64,000 nt of DNA, from contig CBDAOY010000005.1 of NCBI GenBank assembly GCA_965198225.1, positions 576,001 through 640,000 on the forward strand, given 5' to 3'. Shown here one piece after another: positions 29,328 to 53,310 of the stretch; positions within the stretch are counted from its first letter, which is position 1; every line of letters starts with the position of its first letter. Made by a program: the position numbers and the translations under genes. Origin of the DNA: Terriglobia bacterium. GTDB taxonomy: Bacteria; Acidobacteriota; Terriglobia; 20CM-2-55-15. The notes below the pieces were generated by a model. The model was not told where the DNA came from, did not search any database, and was given only the letters and a program-made list of their open reading frames with translations.

Positions 29328-29593
29328 TTGATTAAATTCTCCTTACCTTTACCCGGACCGCCACAGGCTGAAGCACGTCCGGCGGGGAGAGCAGGATCAC
29401 CTCCGCGCGCGGGGGACTCTTTTCTCTTGCTCGACGTTCCCGGCATCATACTCGAATGAGAATCGTAAGCTACCGTATTACACCGTAGAGTCGACGACTG
29501 GCGCGGTGGCGGTAGGCAAAGGGGGTAGCTGTTGCCGGTGGCTTTCGCCGATTCCGGTGCCTCACTCCTCGCCGTGGCTTCGTTTCCAGTCGC

Positions 29594-30912
29594 ACCGGGT
29601 GGCCGGAGGCAGTTGCCCGCCTCCGGCTCCCACAGAACGCAGCGTGCGGATTTCCCGCACTGCGCTCTTCAGAATTGGATTTACAGCACAGCGAGAGACT
29701 GGAACTCCCGATAGCGGAGAGCCAACTTGGGACGCTGTAACGGAAAGTGCAGCCGAATCCGGTTGAATACTTCCCACCGGACGAAGCCTGCACGACTACG
29801 ACTGCTGAGCATTTGGCGCCAGTAACGTTCCACGGCCCGAGCGACGTGCTGCAGAGCCTCGGTTCAGATTGTGCACTTGCTCCCGGACCGGCAAGTGACG
29901 CATTCGCCTCATCACGCCGCGTAGATGAGCCAGACTGCGTCGAAGTCGAGACTTCTCACCGCGTCGGCCGGAATTTCGCTCTCGCTTATATCCGCACCTA
30001 CCGCGCAGGGCTCTAGGTCGATGTTTGTCTTCTCGGTTGCCCGCCCTTTCGTCTGCGGGTGCCACATCATCTCGACCTTACCTTCCGCTCGGACGATACC
30101 AGGCCTCCCTGGGTCACTCGCGTCTCTTCTCCACCGTGTCGCCCGCACACACCTTGGTGCGATGGGGTGGAACCAATGCGCCTTCGCCCCAATAGTGCGG
30201 GCTCGACCATTCCCCATCTTTGGCCGACCGGTTCATCCTCGGGATGGCTCCCGTCGATTACGACCCGGTGGTTCTCCTCATGCCCTTCAGACCCCACCTC
30301 GCGGTGGGCGCCCTGCCCTCCAAAGTTTCCGTAGCTGGCTCCAGCTTTGCCTTGGCCGTATCCGGCTTTCGCCTTCGTGCCCGTTTAGGCATCTGCACTA
30401 CCTGTCTACACTTCGGCCAGTGAGGCATTACCCCCACTTGTTGGATATCGACCCGTGGCCTCGGGCCGAGCGGGACTTTAACCCGCCGGAAACGCGTGCT
30501 GCCAGGCACGCACTATCAGCCAGTCTGACTTCCGACAGGCCTTCGGGTCTTCCTCGCGTTGTTGGCTTGTCCAACCCTACAAGCTCCGCTTGAACCTGAC
30601 GGATCTCCCTTGTTCCCATGAAATCCTTGGTTGCATGCCGGCGGTACGAACCCCGGAAGCACCCCAGGGCACTTGCCATTGCGTGCCCTGCGATTCCGCC
30701 TTCCCCCTAGAGCGACAGGGTCGGCTACTTCAACCACGTTCGATTTCGGGGCTATCTTTCCGTTCACTGGTGTTCCGGCCTACTCCCTCCCTGTCTACGC
30801 TTCGCAGTGTCCGTCACCGACCACCACGCAAGACTCGGTACGTGGCTGCCGGCTAGGCTCTGCCACGGCCGCCATCTCAGGCGACTGGATCTCATGCGCT
30901 TGCAAGGCGCAA
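29594..30912 (-). mobile_element. Nested group II intron 2 (RT mostly deleted), inserted in DVI of the outer intron
   Basis: 5' TTGCG at 30912. It has its own DV (GAGCGCAGTGCGGGAAATCCGCACGCTGCGTTC) and a DVI ending ACCCGGT. A maturase C-terminal remnant lies at about 29676-29940. Confidence 0.85.
29950..30513 (-). mobile_element. Nested group II intron 3, 5' part only, inserted in DIII of intron 2
   Basis: GTGCGTGCC...GCACGC...GGCGGGTTAAAGTCCCG starts right after AGTCAGACTGGCTGATA. DI motifs GTAGACAG and GAGCCC..GGGCGAAGGC are present. The 3' limit is approximate. Confidence 0.75.
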
Positions 30913-30963
30913 CGCTCATCGAACCGGACATGCGGATTTCCCGCATCCGGCTCTCGGACGAGA

Positions 30964-32304
30964 TCATGCCTTCGCCCACGGAAAGCTCGCCGTACGCGGC
31001 GCAAGATGCGTGAGCCCGTAATCGGACCAGAGCCGCTCGGACGGGAAGCGCACGTGTTTCCCGGTCCGCACCTTGTGCTTACGGCAGAGCCACTGGCGCA
31101 GCCGCCGGGTCGCGTGTTGATCAATCGCCTTGTAGGCCGGGCGGACCTGTCCCAGGATGAAATAGTTCGCCCAACCGATCAGCAACCGGTTGAGGCGTCC
31201 CACTACGACTCCCGACGGCAGGAGCACGTGGCGCGGCGCGGTCAACTCGCTCACACGACGGCAGATGCTCTGGACGCTTTCCCGGCTCGGATGTGTGCCT
31301 ATGTAGGCGGCACCCGTACCCGGCCGGTAGTTGCAACCGATCCGGTAGCCGAGGAACGTCATCGATTCCTCCGGCACCCGGCAGCAGCGGGTCTTCTCAA
31401 CGTTCATCGCCAACTTCAGACGTTTTATCAGGGCTTCGACCGCCGCTAGCATCACCGCTGCCGGCGCGCGACCGAGAACCGCGAAGTCATCCGCGTAGTT
31501 GACGATTTCCGCCTTGAAGTGCCGGGCGTAGCCCAGCACCTTCCAGCCCAGAATGAAGCGCCGCATGTAGATGTTGCTGAACAGCGGCGAGATCGGAGAC
31601 CCTTGCGGGGTCCCCTTCCGCTCGTGACGCGCCCGGTTCGTGCGGCGGCGACCGCCGCGCCCGTCGTCCTCTTCCACCGCCATCTCCAGCCACGCCTTGA
31701 CCCAGCCCAACAGCCGCCCGTCGCTCACACGCCGGGCGATGGACTTCATCAGGTCCGCGTGCGGAATCTGGCCGAAGTAGTCCGACAGGTCGGCGTCCAC
31801 CACCTCCCGGTGGCCCGTCCTCAGCAGCCGATGCACGCGCCTGACTGCGTCATGCGCGTCTCGGCCCGGCCGGTACGCATACTGCTCCGGTTGCAGGTCG
31901 GCTTCGAAGATCGGCGATAACACCAGCATCGCCGCCGTCTGCACCACCCGATCCCGGAGACACGGAATGCCCAACGGCCGGAACTTCCCTCGTTGCTTCT
32001 TCGGGATGAGAACCTGCCGAACCGCATGCGGCCGATAGGTCCCTTCCTTCAGGTCCCGCGCCAGTGCTCCCAGCCACCGGTCCACCCCGAACGCATCGAT
32101 GTCCGCGACCGTCTCGCCGTCCACCCCGGCCGCGCCGCCGTTGCGTCGCACGGCCTGCCAGGCGACTGCGAGCACGTCGTCGCGCCACACCTTGTCGCTC
32201 AGAGAGTAGAACCGGAAGCCCAGAGCTTCCTTCGCTTTCGCATGTAGCGCCGTCTGGAGTCGCTGAACTCTCTCCGAGGCTGTTAGGCTCTCGCCAGTCC
32301 TCAT
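30964..32304 (-). CDS. ltrA: Group II intron reverse transcriptase/maturase, no endonuclease domain
   Basis: GAAGVDG, RPLGIPCLRDR, VVDADLSDYF, GTPQGSPISP, NYADDF, FLGY and GWANYF motifs. Confidence 0.95.
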   Translation of the reverse strand: MRTGESLTASERVQRLQTALHAKAKEALGFRFYSLSDKVWRDDVLAVAWQAVRRNGGAAGVDGETVADIDAFGVDRWLGALARDLKEGTYRPHAVRQVLIPKKQRGKFRPLGIPCLRDRVVQTAAMLVLSPIFEADLQPEQYAYRPGRDAHDAVRRVHRLLRTGHREVVDADLSDYFGQIPHADLMKSIARRVSDGRLLGWVKAWLEMAVEEDDGRGGRRRTNRARHERKGTPQGSPISPLFSNIYMRRFILGWKVLGYARHFKAEIVNYADDFAVLGRAPAAVMLAAVEALIKRLKLAMNVEKTRCCRVPEESMTFLGYRIGCNYRPGTGAAYIGTHPSRESVQSICRRVSELTAPRHVLLPSGVVVGRLNRLLIGWANYFILGQVRPAYKAIDQHATRRLRQWLCRKHKVRTGKHVRFPSERLWSDYGLTHLAPRTASFPWAKA

Positions 32305-32481
32305 GTCCCTTCCTCCGTCATGCGCTGCTCTCGAACTGAGGTCCCTTCCCTCCACCGGCATTACCTGATGGGATGGACTCCTCCTTGATGACTGAGTCGG
32401 CATCGTAGTGCCAAAGTCATTGTGAAGCCTCGCGATGGTGCGGGCTAAACACGAGGACGTGTAAACAAGAAGGAGTCCGAG

Positions 32482-33516
32482 ATGAAGAGTAAAACGATCG
32501 CAGTGGATCTGGCAAAGAATGTTTTCGAGATTGGGATTTCCGACCGCCCCGGGCAGATGACGAAGACATACCGTTTAAGCCGGGGAAAGTTCTTGTCGTT
32601 TTTTGCGAATCAGGAGCTGGCGACGGTCGTGATGGAAGCCTGCAGTGCCGCCCATCACTGGGGACGAGAGATCCAGAAACTGGGGCACACAGTGGTACTG
32701 ATTTCACCGCAGTATGTCCGGCCCTACGTACCGAGGAGTAAGACGGATCGGGCGGATGTAAAAGGGTTGCTGGAGGCCCACCGGAATGCCGATATTCGGG
32801 CGGTACCCATTAAGACGGTGGCGCAACAGCAACTCACCGCCCTGCACCGCATCCGGTCGACCTGGATGCGGACCCGGACGGCGCGCATCAACATGGTGCG
32901 GGGGCTGCTGGGAGAGTTTGGGCTCGTGCTGCCGACGGGAGCCCGGCGGCTGGTGCCCGGAGTCATGGGGTTGATCGAAGATGCGGATGTTGAGATCCCC
33001 ATGACCGTACGCGTCATGTTCTCGGAAGTGTGCACCGAAATCCGCGAGCTGGAGGCACGCATTCAATCGGTGGAGCGGGAGTTGGAAGCCCTGGCCCGTC
33101 AGATGCCCGAGGTGGCCCGTCTGCGCTCGATCCCTGGAATCGGGCTGTTGACTTCCACGGCGATGGTAGGTTTTGTCGGTGACCCCCGACGGTTTCGATC
33201 CTGTCGCCACTTTGCCAGTTATCTGGGACTCACCCCGCGTGAGCGTTCGAGCGGAAACCGGCGTCGGCTGGGAGCGATCAGCAAACAAGGCAACGTCTAC
33301 CTGCGGATGCTGCTCATACACGGTGGCCGCACTCTGCTATGGAGTGCGCATCGAAAAGGGGCGCAACCTTCGGCTCTGCAGAAATGGGGTCTCCGTCTCC
33401 ACACACTCCGCGGGCACAACACGGCCACGGTTGCTTTAGCCAACAAACTGGCCCGCACGGTTTGGGCCGTCTGGACACAGGACACGGCGTACGAGGCTGA
33501 CCGACGGGCGGCCTGA
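32482..33516 (+). CDS. IS110 DEDD recombinase/transposase
   Basis: AVDLAKNVF, VMEAC, KTDRAD, SIPGIG, GLTPRERSSG and VALANKLAR motifs. Confidence 0.95.
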   Translation: MKSKTIAVDLAKNVFEIGISDRPGQMTKTYRLSRGKFLSFFANQELATVVMEACSAAHHWGREIQKLGHTVVLISPQYVRPYVPRSKTDRADVKGLLEAHRNADIRAVPIKTVAQQQLTALHRIRSTWMRTRTARINMVRGLLGEFGLVLPTGARRLVPGVMGLIEDADVEIPMTVRVMFSEVCTEIRELEARIQSVERELEALARQMPEVARLRSIPGIGLLTSTAMVGFVGDPRRFRSCRHFASYLGLTPRERSSGNRRRLGAISKQGNVYLRMLLIHGGRTLLWSAHRKGAQPSALQKWGLRLHTLRGHNTATVALANKLARTVWAVWTQDTAYEADRRAA

Positions 33517-33546
33517 CACCATGACTGTAGGAACATCCTTTCAGTA

Positions 33547-33717
33547 GACTGCGACGACGTTCGAGTTGATGACGTACCGGTCAGACCGGCGCGGGGAAAC
33601 GCCGGAGAAGCCGTGGCCCCTGGAGGCCGTTTACCCGGTTGGCACCCCGCGCGCGAATTTCATCATGGCCCGGAACTCAAACGTTCCATTCGAGAGGCCG
33701 AAGATACGGATGCAGTC
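33547..33717 (+). ncRNA. Putative bridge/seekRNA of the IS1111-type element
   Basis: Closing stem GACTGC/GCAGTC. Two internal loops carry target-matching segments (GAAGCCG, TTACCCGG) and donor-matching segments (CATCA, AGATA). Confidence 0.75.
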
Positions 33718-34420
33718 GATCTGTCACTCAACTCGAAAATCAAATATCAGGATGCTGAAAAGAATCTTCGGGAAAAGGATATGGGACAGCTGCGCCTACT
33801 TGACAGGAGGAGTCCAGATACGGCTTTCTTGGTACTGCGGACCTCTCCGCCACCCTGTCGGCCCAACCTGACCCTCGCGGGCTGTCGGTTGGCGCGTGCC
33901 ACGCCACCGGCAGGGCTTCCCGTGTTGCGTCCAATCCCCTCTTCCATACATGCCACCGCCCAATACCCCGGCGGAACCAGTCGGTGCTCGCGTCGCTCGC
34001 TTCCCGACCGCTGGCAGCCTTCCCCGTTTCAACGGCGGGTCGGCTTCCGCATTGTGCGTTTCGAGGCCTGCTCGGCGTTTACTCGCGTTGTGGCCTGTGT
34101 GGTCGCTGAGCCGCCCGAGGCGGCCCTTTGTCATCGGAGTGCTTCAGACGATGTTGTTACCTCCACCATCCGCTCCGATTGCTACCGACTGGAGCGACAG
34201 TTGCCGGGCGGGATTCGCACCCGCTGAGGATTGGCGCCTTCTCACGGCGCACGTTGAAATAAGACATAAGGACCCTCGTCGAGCAATACTGCGCTCGGGC
34301 CCGGCGGCGCAATCTACATCCCTGATCTACATACCCTGCCAATGCAAGGCACGCGCTCCGATGCACCGGCTCGGAGCCGCGCCATCCTGTACGTCGCCGA
34401 GCAGGGATGCACGTGGCGGG

Positions 34421-40267: not shown

Positions 40268-41370
40268 ACCTTGTTGCATGGATCATCCCGAAGGATGTCT
40301 TATCATTGTGTTTTTCAACACCGGGGATAACTTAGATGCCACATAAGTTCAACGCAGCCCGACGGCACAAGTTTGATAAGGCGCAGTACCGGGTGATCAA
40401 CTGGGCGGAATATAACGAGAGCCTGCGCCAGCGGGGTGATCTGACGATTTGGGTCAGTGATGAGGCTCAAAGTGTGTGGCGCGCGCCGCGCCGCACGTCA
40501 CGGGGTGGCCAGCGGAGATACTCGGATCTGGCGATCGAGACATGCCTGACGCTGCGCACGGCGTATCGGCTTGGGTTGCGACAAACGCAGGGGCTGATGG
40601 GTTCCATCGGCACGCTCATGGGGCTGGATATACGGGTGCCGGACTTCTCCACACTGTCGCGTCGCGCAAACGGCTTGAGCATCGCGCAGGTGATGAGGCA
40701 AGCCGGGTCTGTGCCTGTCCATCTGGTGGTGGACAGTACCGGCCTCAAGATCTTCGGCGAAGGGGAATGGCTCGCGCAGAAACATAAAACCAGGGGAATA
40801 CGCCGCCGCTGGCGCAAACTCCACCTCGGACTGGACCTCCATAGCGGTGCGATTGTTTGCGCCAATCTGACTCACGATGACGTTGGAGACAGCACCGCCT
40901 TGCCCGGGCTCCTGGATCAACTCGATGCCCCTGTCACGGGCTTTCTGGCGGACGGCGCCTATGATGGAGCGTCCACACGGGATCTGCTGAGGGAACGGTA
41001 TGGGGAGACCCTGGATGTGGTTATACCGCCGCCAAAGAACGCAGTGATCCGACCGCAATCGGCGCGGGATCCAACCGTTCGGGATCGCCATATTGCCCAG
41101 ATCCGCAGCAACGGCCGCATGGCCTGGCAAGTGGCCACAGGGTACAACCAGCGCAGCCGGATAGAAACGCAGATCGGCCGGTGGAAGAGCGTCATCGGCC
41201 CCAAGCTCAAATCTCGCAGCTTCTCCAGGCAAATCACGGAGATCCAGGTCGGCCAGAAAGTCCTGAACACAATGACCGCACTCGGACGGCCTGTGTTCGA
41301 ACGTATCGCCTGACGCTACCGCTTTGGAAAGGGCGAATTCCATCTCCGCCCCGATCCATGCAACAACGCT
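40268..41370 (+). mobile_element. IS5-family element (IS903 group), transposase at 40336-41313
   Basis: IR core TTGTTGCATGGATC at both ends. NWAEYNESLRQRG, VDSTGLK, WRKLHL and ADGAYD motifs. Confidence 0.92.
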
Positions 41371-53071: not shown

Positions 53072-53310
53072 AGCGTTGTTGCATGGATCGGGGTGGAGAT
53101 GGAATTCGCCCTTTCCCAAGCGGTAGCGTCAGGCGATGCGTTCGAACACAGGCCGTCCGAGTGCGGTCATTGTGTTCAGGACTTTCTGGCCGACCTTGAT
53201 TTCCGTGATCTGCCTGGAGAAGCTGCGGGATTTGAGCTTGGGGCCGATGACGCTCTTCCAACGGCCGATCTGCGTTTCTATCCGGCTGCGCTGGTTGTAC
53301 CCTGTGGCCG
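53072..53310 (-). mobile_element. IS5-family 3' fragment (second copy of the 40268 element)
   Basis: Near-identical, inverted copy of about 41132-41370. It is adjacent to an integrase-core fragment HVNELWQTDFT. Confidence 0.85.

What the first reader, a model, noticed from the sequence alone, without database searches (positions are those of the whole stretch)
32366..33820. IS1111-type recombinase whose bridge/seekRNA appears programmed to target group II intron domain III
Seen: removing 32366-33820 restores GGCATTACC|CGGCTT, which on the intron strand is AAGCCGGGTAATGCC, the conserved DIII stem-loop. In the 3' non-coding region of the IS, a stem (GCGCGGGG/CCCCGCGC) encloses an internal loop holding GAAGCCG (33607-33613) and TTACCCGG (33631-33638). 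TTACCCGG equals the target top strand across the junction. AAGCCG equals the bottom strand. A second loop holds CATCA (33661) and AGATA (33702), matching the IS's own left and right ends. Established: IS110/IS1111 elements use such RNAs to select target and donor, and known IS1111 targets include attC sites, Tn21 IRs and REPs. Inference: this element is an RNA-guided hunter of group II introns, which could disable splicing or use introns as safe havens. I do not know of this target class being described.
Basis: partly seen in the sequence, partly recalled or inferred. Interest (0 to 1): 0.92.

Follow-up and report, generated by a model that had tools for sequence, protein, structure and literature searches.

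The report
RNA-guided IS1111 element inside an intron
This is an ordinary member of the RNA-guided IS1111 group of insertion sequences whose guide RNA matches a short motif found in a conserved hairpin of a group II intron, but the same element also lands in another transposon's gene, so it is a motif-seeker rather than a dedicated intron hunter.

Summary
Window 32366-33820 is a 1455-bp IS1111-group element with exact ends and no target duplication. Uninterrupted intron copies confirm this. It has subterminal inverted repeats with 7/3-nt extensions, a 344-aa DEDD/Transposase_20 recombinase, and a structured 3' non-coding RNA.

In that RNA, GAGAAGCCG and TTACCCGG sit in an internal loop between conserved stems. 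Across 12 guide variants at 35 distinct sites in 8 genomes, these loop positions change together with the flanks, down to single bases. None of 100000 random guide-flank pairings scored as well. RNA-guided targeting is therefore well supported by comparison, though not by experiment.

The "intron hunter" reading is only partly supported. There are 8 full copies of this exact element in 3 genomes:
- 2 in the intron
- 5 in an IS5-family transposase gene
- 1 elsewhere

All sit at TTACC|CGG. Five of 7 intron sites in this genome are empty.

In favour of the intron: the hairpin is conserved across introns down to 71% identity. Only intron variants match the guide fully. A second, unrelated IS1111-type element sits in domain I of the same intron, in 3 of its 3 copies.

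Verdict: new member of a known kind with a new target class.

The parts
32366..33820 (+). Complete IS1111-group insertion sequence, 1455 bp, no target duplication
   Evidence: 4 copies 100% identical over 1-1455 in the own genome. Flanks diverge at these ends. Empty sites found.
32366..32385 (+). Left end: 7-nt terminal extension TGATGGG (32366-32372) plus left subterminal inverted repeat (32373-32385)
   Evidence: Read. The 12 of 13 bases complementary to 33805-33817 is my own count. Ends are conserved in 45 loci of relatives.
32482..33516 (+). Recombinase gene, 344 aa, DEDD/RuvC-like N-terminal domain plus Transposase_20 C-terminal domain with GLTPRERSSG motif
   Evidence: Pfam PF01548 (2.4e-08) and PF02371 (5.9e-24). 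NCBIfam NF033542 'IS110 family RNA-guided transposase', 308 bits against a cut-off of 140. Motif read.
33559..33737 (+). Predicted seekRNA/bridge-RNA-like non-coding RNA: an outer helix (33559-33573 with 33723-33737) encloses two stem-loops
   Evidence: Outer helix in the fold. RNAalifold consensus of 13 relatives has 50 pairs, 7 with compensatory changes. No Rfam family matches here at E<=1.
33589..33652 (+). Target-binding stem-loop: basal stem, inner stem, internal loop with both guides, apical hairpin (33614-33629)
   Evidence: Stems conserved, loop positions variable.
33605..33613 (+). 5' target guide GAGAAGCCG, complementary to top strand of the right flank (CGGCTTCTC)
   Evidence: Matches 6 contiguous nt of the window's right flank. 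It matches 11-12 nt in intron variants L074 and L077. The same position covaries with the right flank in relatives.
33631..33638 (+). 3' target guide TTACCCGG, identical to the top strand across the junction (TTACC|CGG)
   Evidence: 8 of 8 match at all 5 distinct sites of this element. Single-base covariation between L021 and L022.
33653..33722 (+). Donor-binding stem-loop: TTTCATCA (33658-33665) is complementary to left end TGATG; AGATACGG (33702-33709) equals right end AGATA plus the first 3 nt of the right flank
   Evidence: Both segments conserved in all 13 aligned relatives. The ends are conserved too, so there is no covariation to test, except for CGA in L025.
33805..33820 (+). Right subterminal inverted repeat (33805-33817) plus 3-nt terminal extension ATA
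   Evidence: conserved in relatives.
32361..32365 (+). Left half of the target (TTACC)
   Evidence: Present at all 8 full copies of this element.
33821..33829 (+). Right half of the target (CGGCTTTCT); CGG is read by both guides
   Evidence: Right flanks of relatives start with CGG, CAG, CGA or GGG.
29483..34252 (-). Host group II intron: 5' GTGCG at 34252, D1-D4 RNA matches, RT/maturase ORF about 32305 to 30964, domain V about 30920-30954. It is interrupted by this IS and by an inner intron-like insert
   Evidence: Rfam RF02003 (82.8 bits), RF02005 and RF00029. Pfam RVT_1 and GIIM. Extent from comparison with copy 2. The 3' end is approximate.

Best explanation
Window 32366-33820 is an intact IS1111-group (IS110 family) insertion sequence. 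Its DEDD recombinase is guided by a roughly 180-nt RNA made from the 3' non-coding region.

That RNA has a target-binding stem-loop. Its internal loop carries GAGAAGCCG, which pairs with the top strand of CGGCTTCTC, and TTACCCGG, which pairs with the bottom strand of TTACC+CGG. A donor-binding stem-loop carries segments matching the element's own ends.

The element therefore integrates in one orientation, without duplication, between TTACC and CGG wherever this short motif occurs. One such place is the terminal hairpin of the probable domain III of a multi-copy group II intron. The window copy sits there, antisense to the intron and 60 nt upstream of the intron's RT start codon. Others are a site inside an IS5-family transposase gene and an intergenic site.

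What is shown here:
- the anatomy and exact boundaries
- the shared motif at all copies
- covariation of guide positions with flanks across relatives

What is inferred:
- that the RNA is made and bound by the recombinase
- that the element moves through a circle
- that insertion disables the intron
For: Family features:
- Pfam and NCBIfam hits
- GL-P----SG motif
- 12/13-bp subterminal repeats with 7/3-nt extensions
- long non-coding region downstream of the gene
- no duplication, from empty sites

These are the IS1111 criteria given in PMC11187229.

Guide order and overlap in the target are as described for IS1111 seekRNAs.

All 8 full copies of the identical element, in G000, G023 and G025, sit at TTACC|CGG in one orientation.

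Relatives (61-77% amino-acid identity) keep the stems but differ in the loop, and each matches its own flanks:
- There are 12 guide variants at 35 distinct sites.
- The summed longest exact match is 12.6 for own flanks against 7.5 for others.
- 0 of 100000 random pairings reach the observed total.
- TTTAACGG goes with a ..TTTAA| flank, TTTATCGG with ..TTTAT|, and TTTCTCGG with ..TTTCT|.

In the consensus fold the guides lie in an internal loop between conserved stems, with compensatory changes in the basal stem.
Against: - There is no direct evidence that the RNA exists or binds the protein. The element is present at low depth in contigs from two metatranscriptome runs, but contigs cannot show transcription. 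No circle junction was seen.
- On this sequence alone the matches are short: 8 nt and 6 nt. An 8-nt match occurs in 4% of shuffles.
- The single-sequence fold partly pairs the guides.
- The relatives are kin, so the permutation test overstates independence. Several variants of one group share a target.
- The first three bases of the element (TGA) differ from the target's CGG. This does not fit the identical-core rule known for IS621.
- No Rfam family matches the RNA.
Confidence: 0.85

Rival explanations
1. Dedicated intron hunter. The guide evolved for the group II intron hairpin, which is the cognate target. The IS5-family and other sites are off-targets that happen to share the motif.
For: - The hairpin sequence is conserved in 14 intron copies from 8 genomes, down to 71% overall identity. 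TTACCCGG is present in 13 of 14.
- Only intron variants match the 5' guide fully. L074 and L077, from the same genus, read CGGCTTCTCCGG: 11-12 contiguous nt. The best IS5-family site gives 4-5 nt and L019 gives 6.
- A second, unrelated IS1111-type element (37% amino-acid identity) sits in domain I of the same intron in 3 of its 3 copies. Its own non-coding region carries AGGCCTCGAA and CGTTTCGA, which match that site.
- 2 of 4 copies in this genome are in the intron.
Against: - 5 of 8 full copies are in the IS5-family gene and 1 is elsewhere.
- 5 of 7 intron sites in G000 are empty, as is the site in G023, which carries the identical element.
- The two genomes whose introns match perfectly do not carry this element; one search shows only 70-76% relatives there, with other guides.
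- Beyond the 6 nt shared by all sites, only about 3 guide-specific positions discriminate. My own estimate is about 1 in 10 by chance, given 7 intron variants. The further matching bases fall in the conserved scaffold GCCG.
- Relatives target other repeats, not introns.
Confidence: 0.25
2. One insertion, then spread with its carrier. The element entered one intron copy (or one IS5-family copy) once, and the nested composite was multiplied by the carrier's own mobility or by recombination. On this reading the copy counts say little about targeting.
For: - The two intron+IS composites are 99.9% identical over 3152 bp.
- The two occupied IS5-family copies in G000 are of variants typical of other genomes. 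One is CTGCATTACC, as in G023. The other is CCGCCTTACC, as in G012, G022 and G025. G000's own 5 unoccupied copies read TTGCC.
Against: - The two intron copies lie at different loci; the match stops at the intron ends. Each carries a different further insert: an inner intron in one, the second IS in the other.
- An intron RNA with 1.5 kb in domain III is unlikely to retrohome. This is inference.
- L019, and the relatives with many distinct flanks, show real site-specific insertion. One relative has 11 copies at 10 distinct sites in G023.
Confidence: 0.15
3. The loop-target matches are chance, and the recombinase protein alone selects the target.
For: The matches are short. An 8-nt match arises in 208 of 5000 shuffles. 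CGG at +1..+3 is nearly constant across relatives, so it could be read by protein.
Against: Guide positions covary with flanks in 12 variants, including single-base changes, while the stems and the protein stay similar. The architecture and guide order equal those shown experimentally for IS1111 seekRNAs (PMC11187229).
Confidence: 0.03

Closest known systems
IS1111-family elements with a seekRNA: ISEc11, ISPa11, ISKpn4, ISPst6 (Siddiquee et al. 2024, PMC11187229; introduction and results sections 6, 9, 10, 13 read)
   Same: - DEDD recombinase of 330-350 aa with the GL-P----S(t)G motif
- subterminal inverted repeats with 7/3-nt extensions
- non-coding region downstream of the gene
- RNA with the top-strand complement 5' of the bottom-strand complement, overlapping in the target
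- orientation-specific insertion without duplication
- natural reprogramming between relatives (there, ISEc11 and ISXne4)
   Different: - The target here is a motif in a group II intron hairpin and in an IS5-family transposase gene. Their targets are a short linear site, attC sites and REP sequences.
- The best plasmid-borne relative is only 43.6% identical. It is an IS110-family gene inside an integron cassette array; the record gives it no name.
- Nothing here is shown experimentally.
IS621 bridge RNA system (Durrant et al. 2024, PMC11208160, passages on IS1111 read; Hiraizumi et al. 2026, PMC13626964, abstract read)
   Same: - Two-loop guide RNA, one loop for the target and one for the donor, each reading both strands.
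- That paper predicts bridge RNAs in the right end of 93% of IS1111 elements.
- The donor-loop segment that extends into the target's first bases resembles the 'handshake guides' named in the 2026 abstract. That link is my inference.
   Different: - The RNA lies at the 3' end, not the 5' end.
- The subterminal repeats are long.
- The position equivalent to the core differs between donor (TGA) and target (CGG), whereas IS621 has the same CT core in both. The IS621 core is recalled, not taken from a call.
The second IS1111-type element of this genome (G000 C5:746556-748064, 1509 bp)
   Same: It has the same architecture, and all 3 of its copies sit in the same intron family. Its 3' non-coding region carries a top-strand complement, a hairpin, then a top-strand copy of its target, plus a right end+core segment.
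   Different: - Its recombinase is 37% identical.
- Its target is in intron domain I (about nt 189).
- Its core CGA is found at both junctions. Our element has no repeated bases.
- It was found only in G000 among 34 genomes.

Membership tests
IS1111 group of the IS110 family | DEDD (RuvC-like) N-terminal domain and PF02371 C-terminal domain with GL-P----S(t)G motif; length 330-350 aa | tested here: met
   PF01548 and PF02371; NF033542 at 308 bits; 344 aa with GLTPRERSSG.
IS1111 group of the IS110 family | Subterminal inverted repeats of about 11-13 bp, with terminal extensions of 7 bp (left) and 3 bp (right) | tested here: met
   32373-32385 and 33805-33817 are complementary at 12 of 13 positions. 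The extensions are TGATGGG and ATA. Criteria from PMC11187229.
IS1111 group of the IS110 family | Longer non-coding region downstream of the recombinase gene | tested here: met
   116 nt upstream against 304 nt downstream.
IS1111 group of the IS110 family | Site- and orientation-specific insertion without target duplication | tested here: met
   8 of 8 full copies sit at TTACC|CGG in one orientation. Empty sites show no duplication.
IS1111 group of the IS110 family | seekRNA with the top-strand complement 5' of the bottom-strand complement, overlapping in the target | tested here: met
   33605-33613, then 33631-33638; the overlap is CGG. That the RNA is made was not tested.
IS1111 group of the IS110 family | Circular intermediate with abutted ends; RNA co-purifies with the recombinase | not testable with these tools
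   No circle junction appeared among contigs of 4 runs. Contigs drop rare forms, so this says nothing either way.
IS621-type bridge RNA system | Same core bases in donor and target, repeated at both junctions | tested here: not met
   The left junction reads TTACC|TGA and the right reads ATA|CGG; no bases are repeated. The second IS of this genome does repeat CGA.
Group II intron (host of the insertion) | 5' GUGCG, D1-D4 and domain V RNA motifs, RT-maturase ORF in domain IV | tested here: met
   RF02003, RF02005 and RF00029; RVT_1 and GIIM; GTGCG at 34252.
Group II intron (host of the insertion) | Insertion site lies in domain III | tested here: inconclusive
   The site is the terminal hairpin of a three-tier helical domain between a DII-like hairpin and the ORF-bearing domain. 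The basal stem covaries among 9 introns. No curated model covers this region, so the domain number rests on position.

The most novel reading that the evidence does not exclude
Group II introns are a preferred, renewable landing pad for RNA-guided IS1111 elements. At least two unrelated IS1111 lineages have independently tuned their guide RNAs to conserved ribozyme-coding sequence of one intron family (domain III hairpin and domain I). The gain would be either a multi-copy, horizontally spreading safe haven or the disabling of a competing mobile element. The IS5-family site would then be a secondary target reached through a shared motif.
Probability: 0.2. Interest if true: 0.7.

Novelty: new member of a known kind. 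Interest (0 to 1): 0.45.

Why it matters
Natural guide-target series:
- The locus provides a natural series of reprogrammed IS1111 guide RNAs. It has 12 guide variants with known targets, some differing by one base in both guide and target.
- That is useful comparative material for working out the targeting rules of IS1111-type bridge/seek RNAs, which are less studied than IS621.

New target class:
- It adds conserved ribozyme-coding DNA of a group II intron, and the transposase gene of another IS, to the known targets (REP, attC, Tn21 repeats).
- Three full-text searches found no paper describing IS110 or IS1111 insertion into group II introns. I read listings and abstracts only, plus one passage.

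Open question:
- Two different IS1111-type elements in one intron family suggest that mobile elements use each other as landing sites in this Terriglobia genome.
- Whether this is selection or simple availability of a repeated motif remains open.

Tried and rejected
- **Flank carry-over.** One occupied IS5-family copy (L001) differs from the unoccupied copies of this genome at 4 positions within 14 bp, 3 of them towards the intron sequence. I considered that flanking bases travel with the element. I rejected this. The same variants exist unoccupied in large numbers elsewhere: 89 of 91 sites in G023 read CTGCATTACCCGGGCTCC, and all 33 in G012 read CCGCCTTACCCGGGCTCC.
- **Fixed-offset scoring** of guide against flank gave a weak result: 195 of 5040 permutations reached the observed score. 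The cause is that guide offsets differ by 1 nt between variants. I replaced it with a longest-exact-match score applied equally to own and other flanks.
- **First regular expression for the loop** found nothing. I replaced it with anchors on the apical hairpin.
- **Sequencing runs.**
  - Contigs from 2 metatranscriptome runs and 2 other runs hold the element and the empty intron site.
  - They show no circle junction.
  - They cannot show an RNA's ends or level, so they give no verdict on expression.
- **Metagenome scan** with the 24-nt left junction found 4 loci. All are a different element, in REP-like palindromes, so they give no census of this element.
- **Genome-contig scan** with the protein gave only 7 loci. 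The order-level genome search was more useful.
- **Plasmid DNA search** gave only short 100-nt matches.
- **Insertion in the G023 intron copy.** It carries a 413-aa ORF and has 8 bp repeated at its ends. I take it for an IS256-family element, by recall of the protein motif and not by a call. I set it aside.
- **Supplementary files of PMC11187229 and PMC11208160** were not seen. They may list targets of other IS1111 elements, including intron targets.
Full report
**What is there**

Window 32366-33820 is a 1455-bp element.
- It has one long ORF (32482-33516, + strand, 344 aa). The ORF matches the two Pfam domains of IS110-family recombinases (PF01548 and PF02371). It also matches NCBIfam NF033542, 'IS110 family RNA-guided transposase', at 308 bits against a cut-off of 140.
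- The protein carries GLTPRERSSG, the GL-P----S(t)G motif.
- The element has 116 nt before the gene and 304 nt after it.
- Its ends are TGATGGG plus a 13-nt repeat on the left, and the inverted 13-nt repeat (12 of 13 complementary) plus ATA on the right.
- These are the features that Siddiquee et al. 2024 (PMC11187229; introduction and results sections 6, 9, 10, 13 read) give for the IS1111 family: subterminal repeats, 7/3-nt extensions, a downstream non-coding region, and a 330-350 aa protein.

**Boundaries**

- The own genome is a 6.4-Mb Terriglobia assembly, judging by the record titles of near-identical loci.
- It holds four copies that are 100% identical over all 1455 bases. Their flanks diverge exactly at these ends.
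- Uninterrupted copies of the host intron read GGCATTACC directly followed by CGGCTT. One search found 4 and one search found 5 with the 13-mer.
No bases are duplicated, and the ends cannot be shifted.

**The host**

- The element sits antisense in a group II intron on the minus strand.
- The intron shows a 5' GTGCG at 34252, Rfam D1-D4 matches at 33965-34226, an RT-maturase ORF (RVT_1 and GIIM) and a domain V match.
- The insertion lies after intron nucleotide 432, 60 nt upstream of the RT start codon.
- I aligned 9 introns of this family, spanning 71-100% identity. The site is the terminal hairpin (GCCGG-GUAAUG-CCGGU) of a three-tier helical domain. That domain lies between a DII-like hairpin and the ORF-bearing domain, and its basal stem covaries.
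- This fits domain III by position. No curated model covers the region, so I call the assignment plausible, not proven.

**The RNA**

- The 3' region folds with a 14-bp outer helix (33559-33573 with 33723-33737) that encloses two stem-loops.
- In the first, GAGAAGCCG (33605-33613) and TTACCCGG (33631-33638) flank an apical hairpin.
- The former is complementary to the top strand of the right flank. The latter is identical to the top strand across the junction.
- The order (top-strand complement first) and the overlap in the target (CGG) are those reported for IS1111 seekRNAs.
- In the second stem-loop, TTTCATCA is complementary to the left end TGATG. AGATACGG equals the right end AGATA plus CGG.
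- Taken alone, this is weak. The bottom-strand match to the window's own target is 6 nt. An 8-nt match arises in 208 of 5000 shuffles. The single-sequence fold partly pairs the guides.
- No Rfam family matches the region.

**Comparison with relatives**

This is the decisive evidence.
- A protein search of the 34 genomes of the order found relatives in 12 (E<=1e-60).
- I recovered both ends in 45 loci. Some are the same place fetched twice. They represent 35 distinct flank pairs and 12 guide variants in 8 genomes.
- Ends and stems are conserved. The loop positions differ, and each variant matches its own flanks. Writing the reverse complement of the 5' guide against the right flank:
  - CGGACGTTGTC against cggacgttgag (one variant, 11 copies at 10 distinct sites)
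  - GGACATGTGTC against cggacatgtg
  - GGGCTGCTATC against cgggctgctag
  - GAGGCGTCATC against cgaggcgtcag
- For the 3' guide, TTTAACGG goes with a flank ending TTTAA, TTTATCGG with TTTAT, and TTTCTCGG with TTTCT.
- The summed longest exact match is 12.6 for own flanks against 7.5 for others. None of 100000 random pairings reaches the observed total. The sequences are kin, so this overstates independence.
- RNAalifold on 13 sequences places the guides in an internal loop between a basal stem (two compensatory changes), an inner stem and an invariant apical hairpin.
- The 72%-identical relative in the own genome (C4:92181-93570) shows the same pattern, but its right end is 3 nt shorter than expected.

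**Is it an intron hunter?**

Against:
- The identical 1455-bp element occurs 8 times in full, in three genomes. Two copies are in the intron, both in this genome. Five are in an IS5-family transposase gene: L001 and L004 here, L017 and L030 in G023, L031 in G025. One is between genes in G025 (L019). The IS5-family domains DDE_Tnp_1_5 and DDE_Tnp_1 were confirmed.
- All eight sit at TTACC|CGG.
- A 5'-truncated ninth copy in G023 abuts CGGCTTCGTC in an unidentified context.
- Five of 7 intron sites in this genome are empty. So is the intron site of G023.
- In G023, 89 IS5-family sites with TTACC are empty against 2 occupied.
- None of 18 loci holding relatives, or this element outside the intron, gave an intron match. 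The control locus did.

For:
- The hairpin sequence is conserved in 14 intron copies from 8 genomes; TTACCCGG is present in 13 of 14.
- Only intron variants match the 5' guide in full. L074 and L077, from the same genus, read CGGCTTCTCCGG.
- That extra match rests on about three guide-specific bases. My estimate is roughly 1 in 10 by chance, given seven variants.
- A second IS1111-type element points the same way. It is 1509 bp, with a recombinase 37% identical to ours. It sits in domain I of the same intron in all 3 of its copies, while 3 further sites are empty.
- Its own 3' region carries AGGCCTCGAA, a hairpin and CGTTTCGA, which match its target TTTCGAGGCC. It also carries CACATACGA, which matches its right end plus core.
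- It was found only in this genome among the 34.

**Conclusion**

- The element is a normal IS1111-type RNA-guided insertion sequence.
- Its guide specifies TTACC|CGGCTTCTC.
- The intron hairpin is the best natural match found and may be the cognate target. In practice the element uses any site with the short motif, most often another insertion sequence.
- I put the motif-seeker account at 0.85 and the dedicated intron hunter at 0.25 (a narrower reading of the same facts).

**Unexplained**

- In the second element the three bases CGA occur at both junctions, as a shared core would.
- In our element the equivalent left-hand bases are TGA, in 44 of 45 loci. The target has CGG, and nothing is repeated.
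- The donor-loop segment carries CGG, not TGA. In the one relative whose target starts CGA (L025), that segment reads CGA.
- This may be a handshake-like contact, as named for IS621 (abstract of PMC13626964). That link is my inference and rests on two cases.

**Literature**

- Durrant et al. 2024 (PMC11208160, IS1111 passages read) predict bridge RNAs in the right end of 93% of IS1111 elements.
- Three full-text searches found no report of IS110 or IS1111 elements inserting into group II introns.
  - I read listings and abstracts only.
  - At I read one passage of a paper listed.
  - At I read passages of the one paper listed.
- The supplements of these papers were not seen.

Noticed in passing
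Own genome G000 C5:746556-748064, C4:145763-147271, C5:826165-827312 (partial); the same site is unoccupied in the window at about 34062-34064: A second, unrelated IS1111-type element (1509 bp, recombinase 37% identical). All 3 copies lie in domain I of the same intron family, at TTTCGA|..|CGAGGCC with CGA at both junctions. Its 3' non-coding region holds matching guide segments. 3 further sites are empty.
   Followed up: partly
window 29594-30912 (minus strand): An intron-like insert of 1319 bp (Rfam D1-D4-6 at 30643-30877, domain V at 29594-29669) lies inside the outer intron just after its domain V. It is absent from the other intron copy (C5:743293-743404 joins window 29593 to 30913). This looks like a twintron with no long ORF.
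   Followed up: partly
window 40268-41370 (intact copy) and 53072-53309 (fragment): This is the IS5-family element (325-aa DDE transposase) that is the other main target. The copy here reads TTGCC at the site and is unoccupied, as are all 5 such copies of this genome. The two occupied copies carry TTACC and belong to variants that are abundant in other genomes (91 copies in G023, 33 in G012). That could mean the nested pair arrived together.
   Followed up: partly
window 32366-32368 against 33821-33823: The first three bases of the element (TGA) stand where the second element of this genome has its repeated core (CGA), yet the target core here is CGG. Donor and target therefore differ at the position that is identical in IS621-type systems. 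The donor-loop segment AGATACGG carries the target's CGG.
   Followed up: partly
G000 C4:92181-93570 (L005): A 72%-identical relative with different guides. Its left flank matches its 3' guide, but its right end is about 3 nt shorter than the family's CCAGATA, so it may no longer be mobile.
   Followed up: no
G000 C6:561411-561465 (L006, L069): A solitary right-end remnant of a related element (about 75 nt) abuts GCCGGGTAAT. That is the reverse complement of this element's target motif. No explanation.
   Followed up: no
window 33800-33805: TTGACA, conserved in all aligned relatives, lies 15 nt from the right end. Joined to the left end in a circle, it could form a junction promoter, as described for other IS1111 elements. 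I did not test this, because it needs a joined sequence.
   Followed up: no
L093 (G023 C2:2817700-2819900): Another copy of the intron carries a 1.5-kb insertion with a 413-aa ORF and 8 bp repeated at its ends, near the RT start. It looks like an IS256-family element (recalled, not tested).
   Followed up: partly
L097-L100 (metagenome contigs): A different element shares the first 19 nt of the left end. It also follows TTACC, but within REP-like palindromes (..CCCGGGTGCGGCTGCGCCTTACC|).
   Followed up: no
window 32365/33821 in runs X15 and X16: Contigs of two metatranscriptome runs join 32365 to 33821 (the intron without the element) at depths of about 2750 and 2840. The element itself has depth 5-26. 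The intact intron may be abundant as RNA there, but contigs cannot prove it.
   Followed up: no
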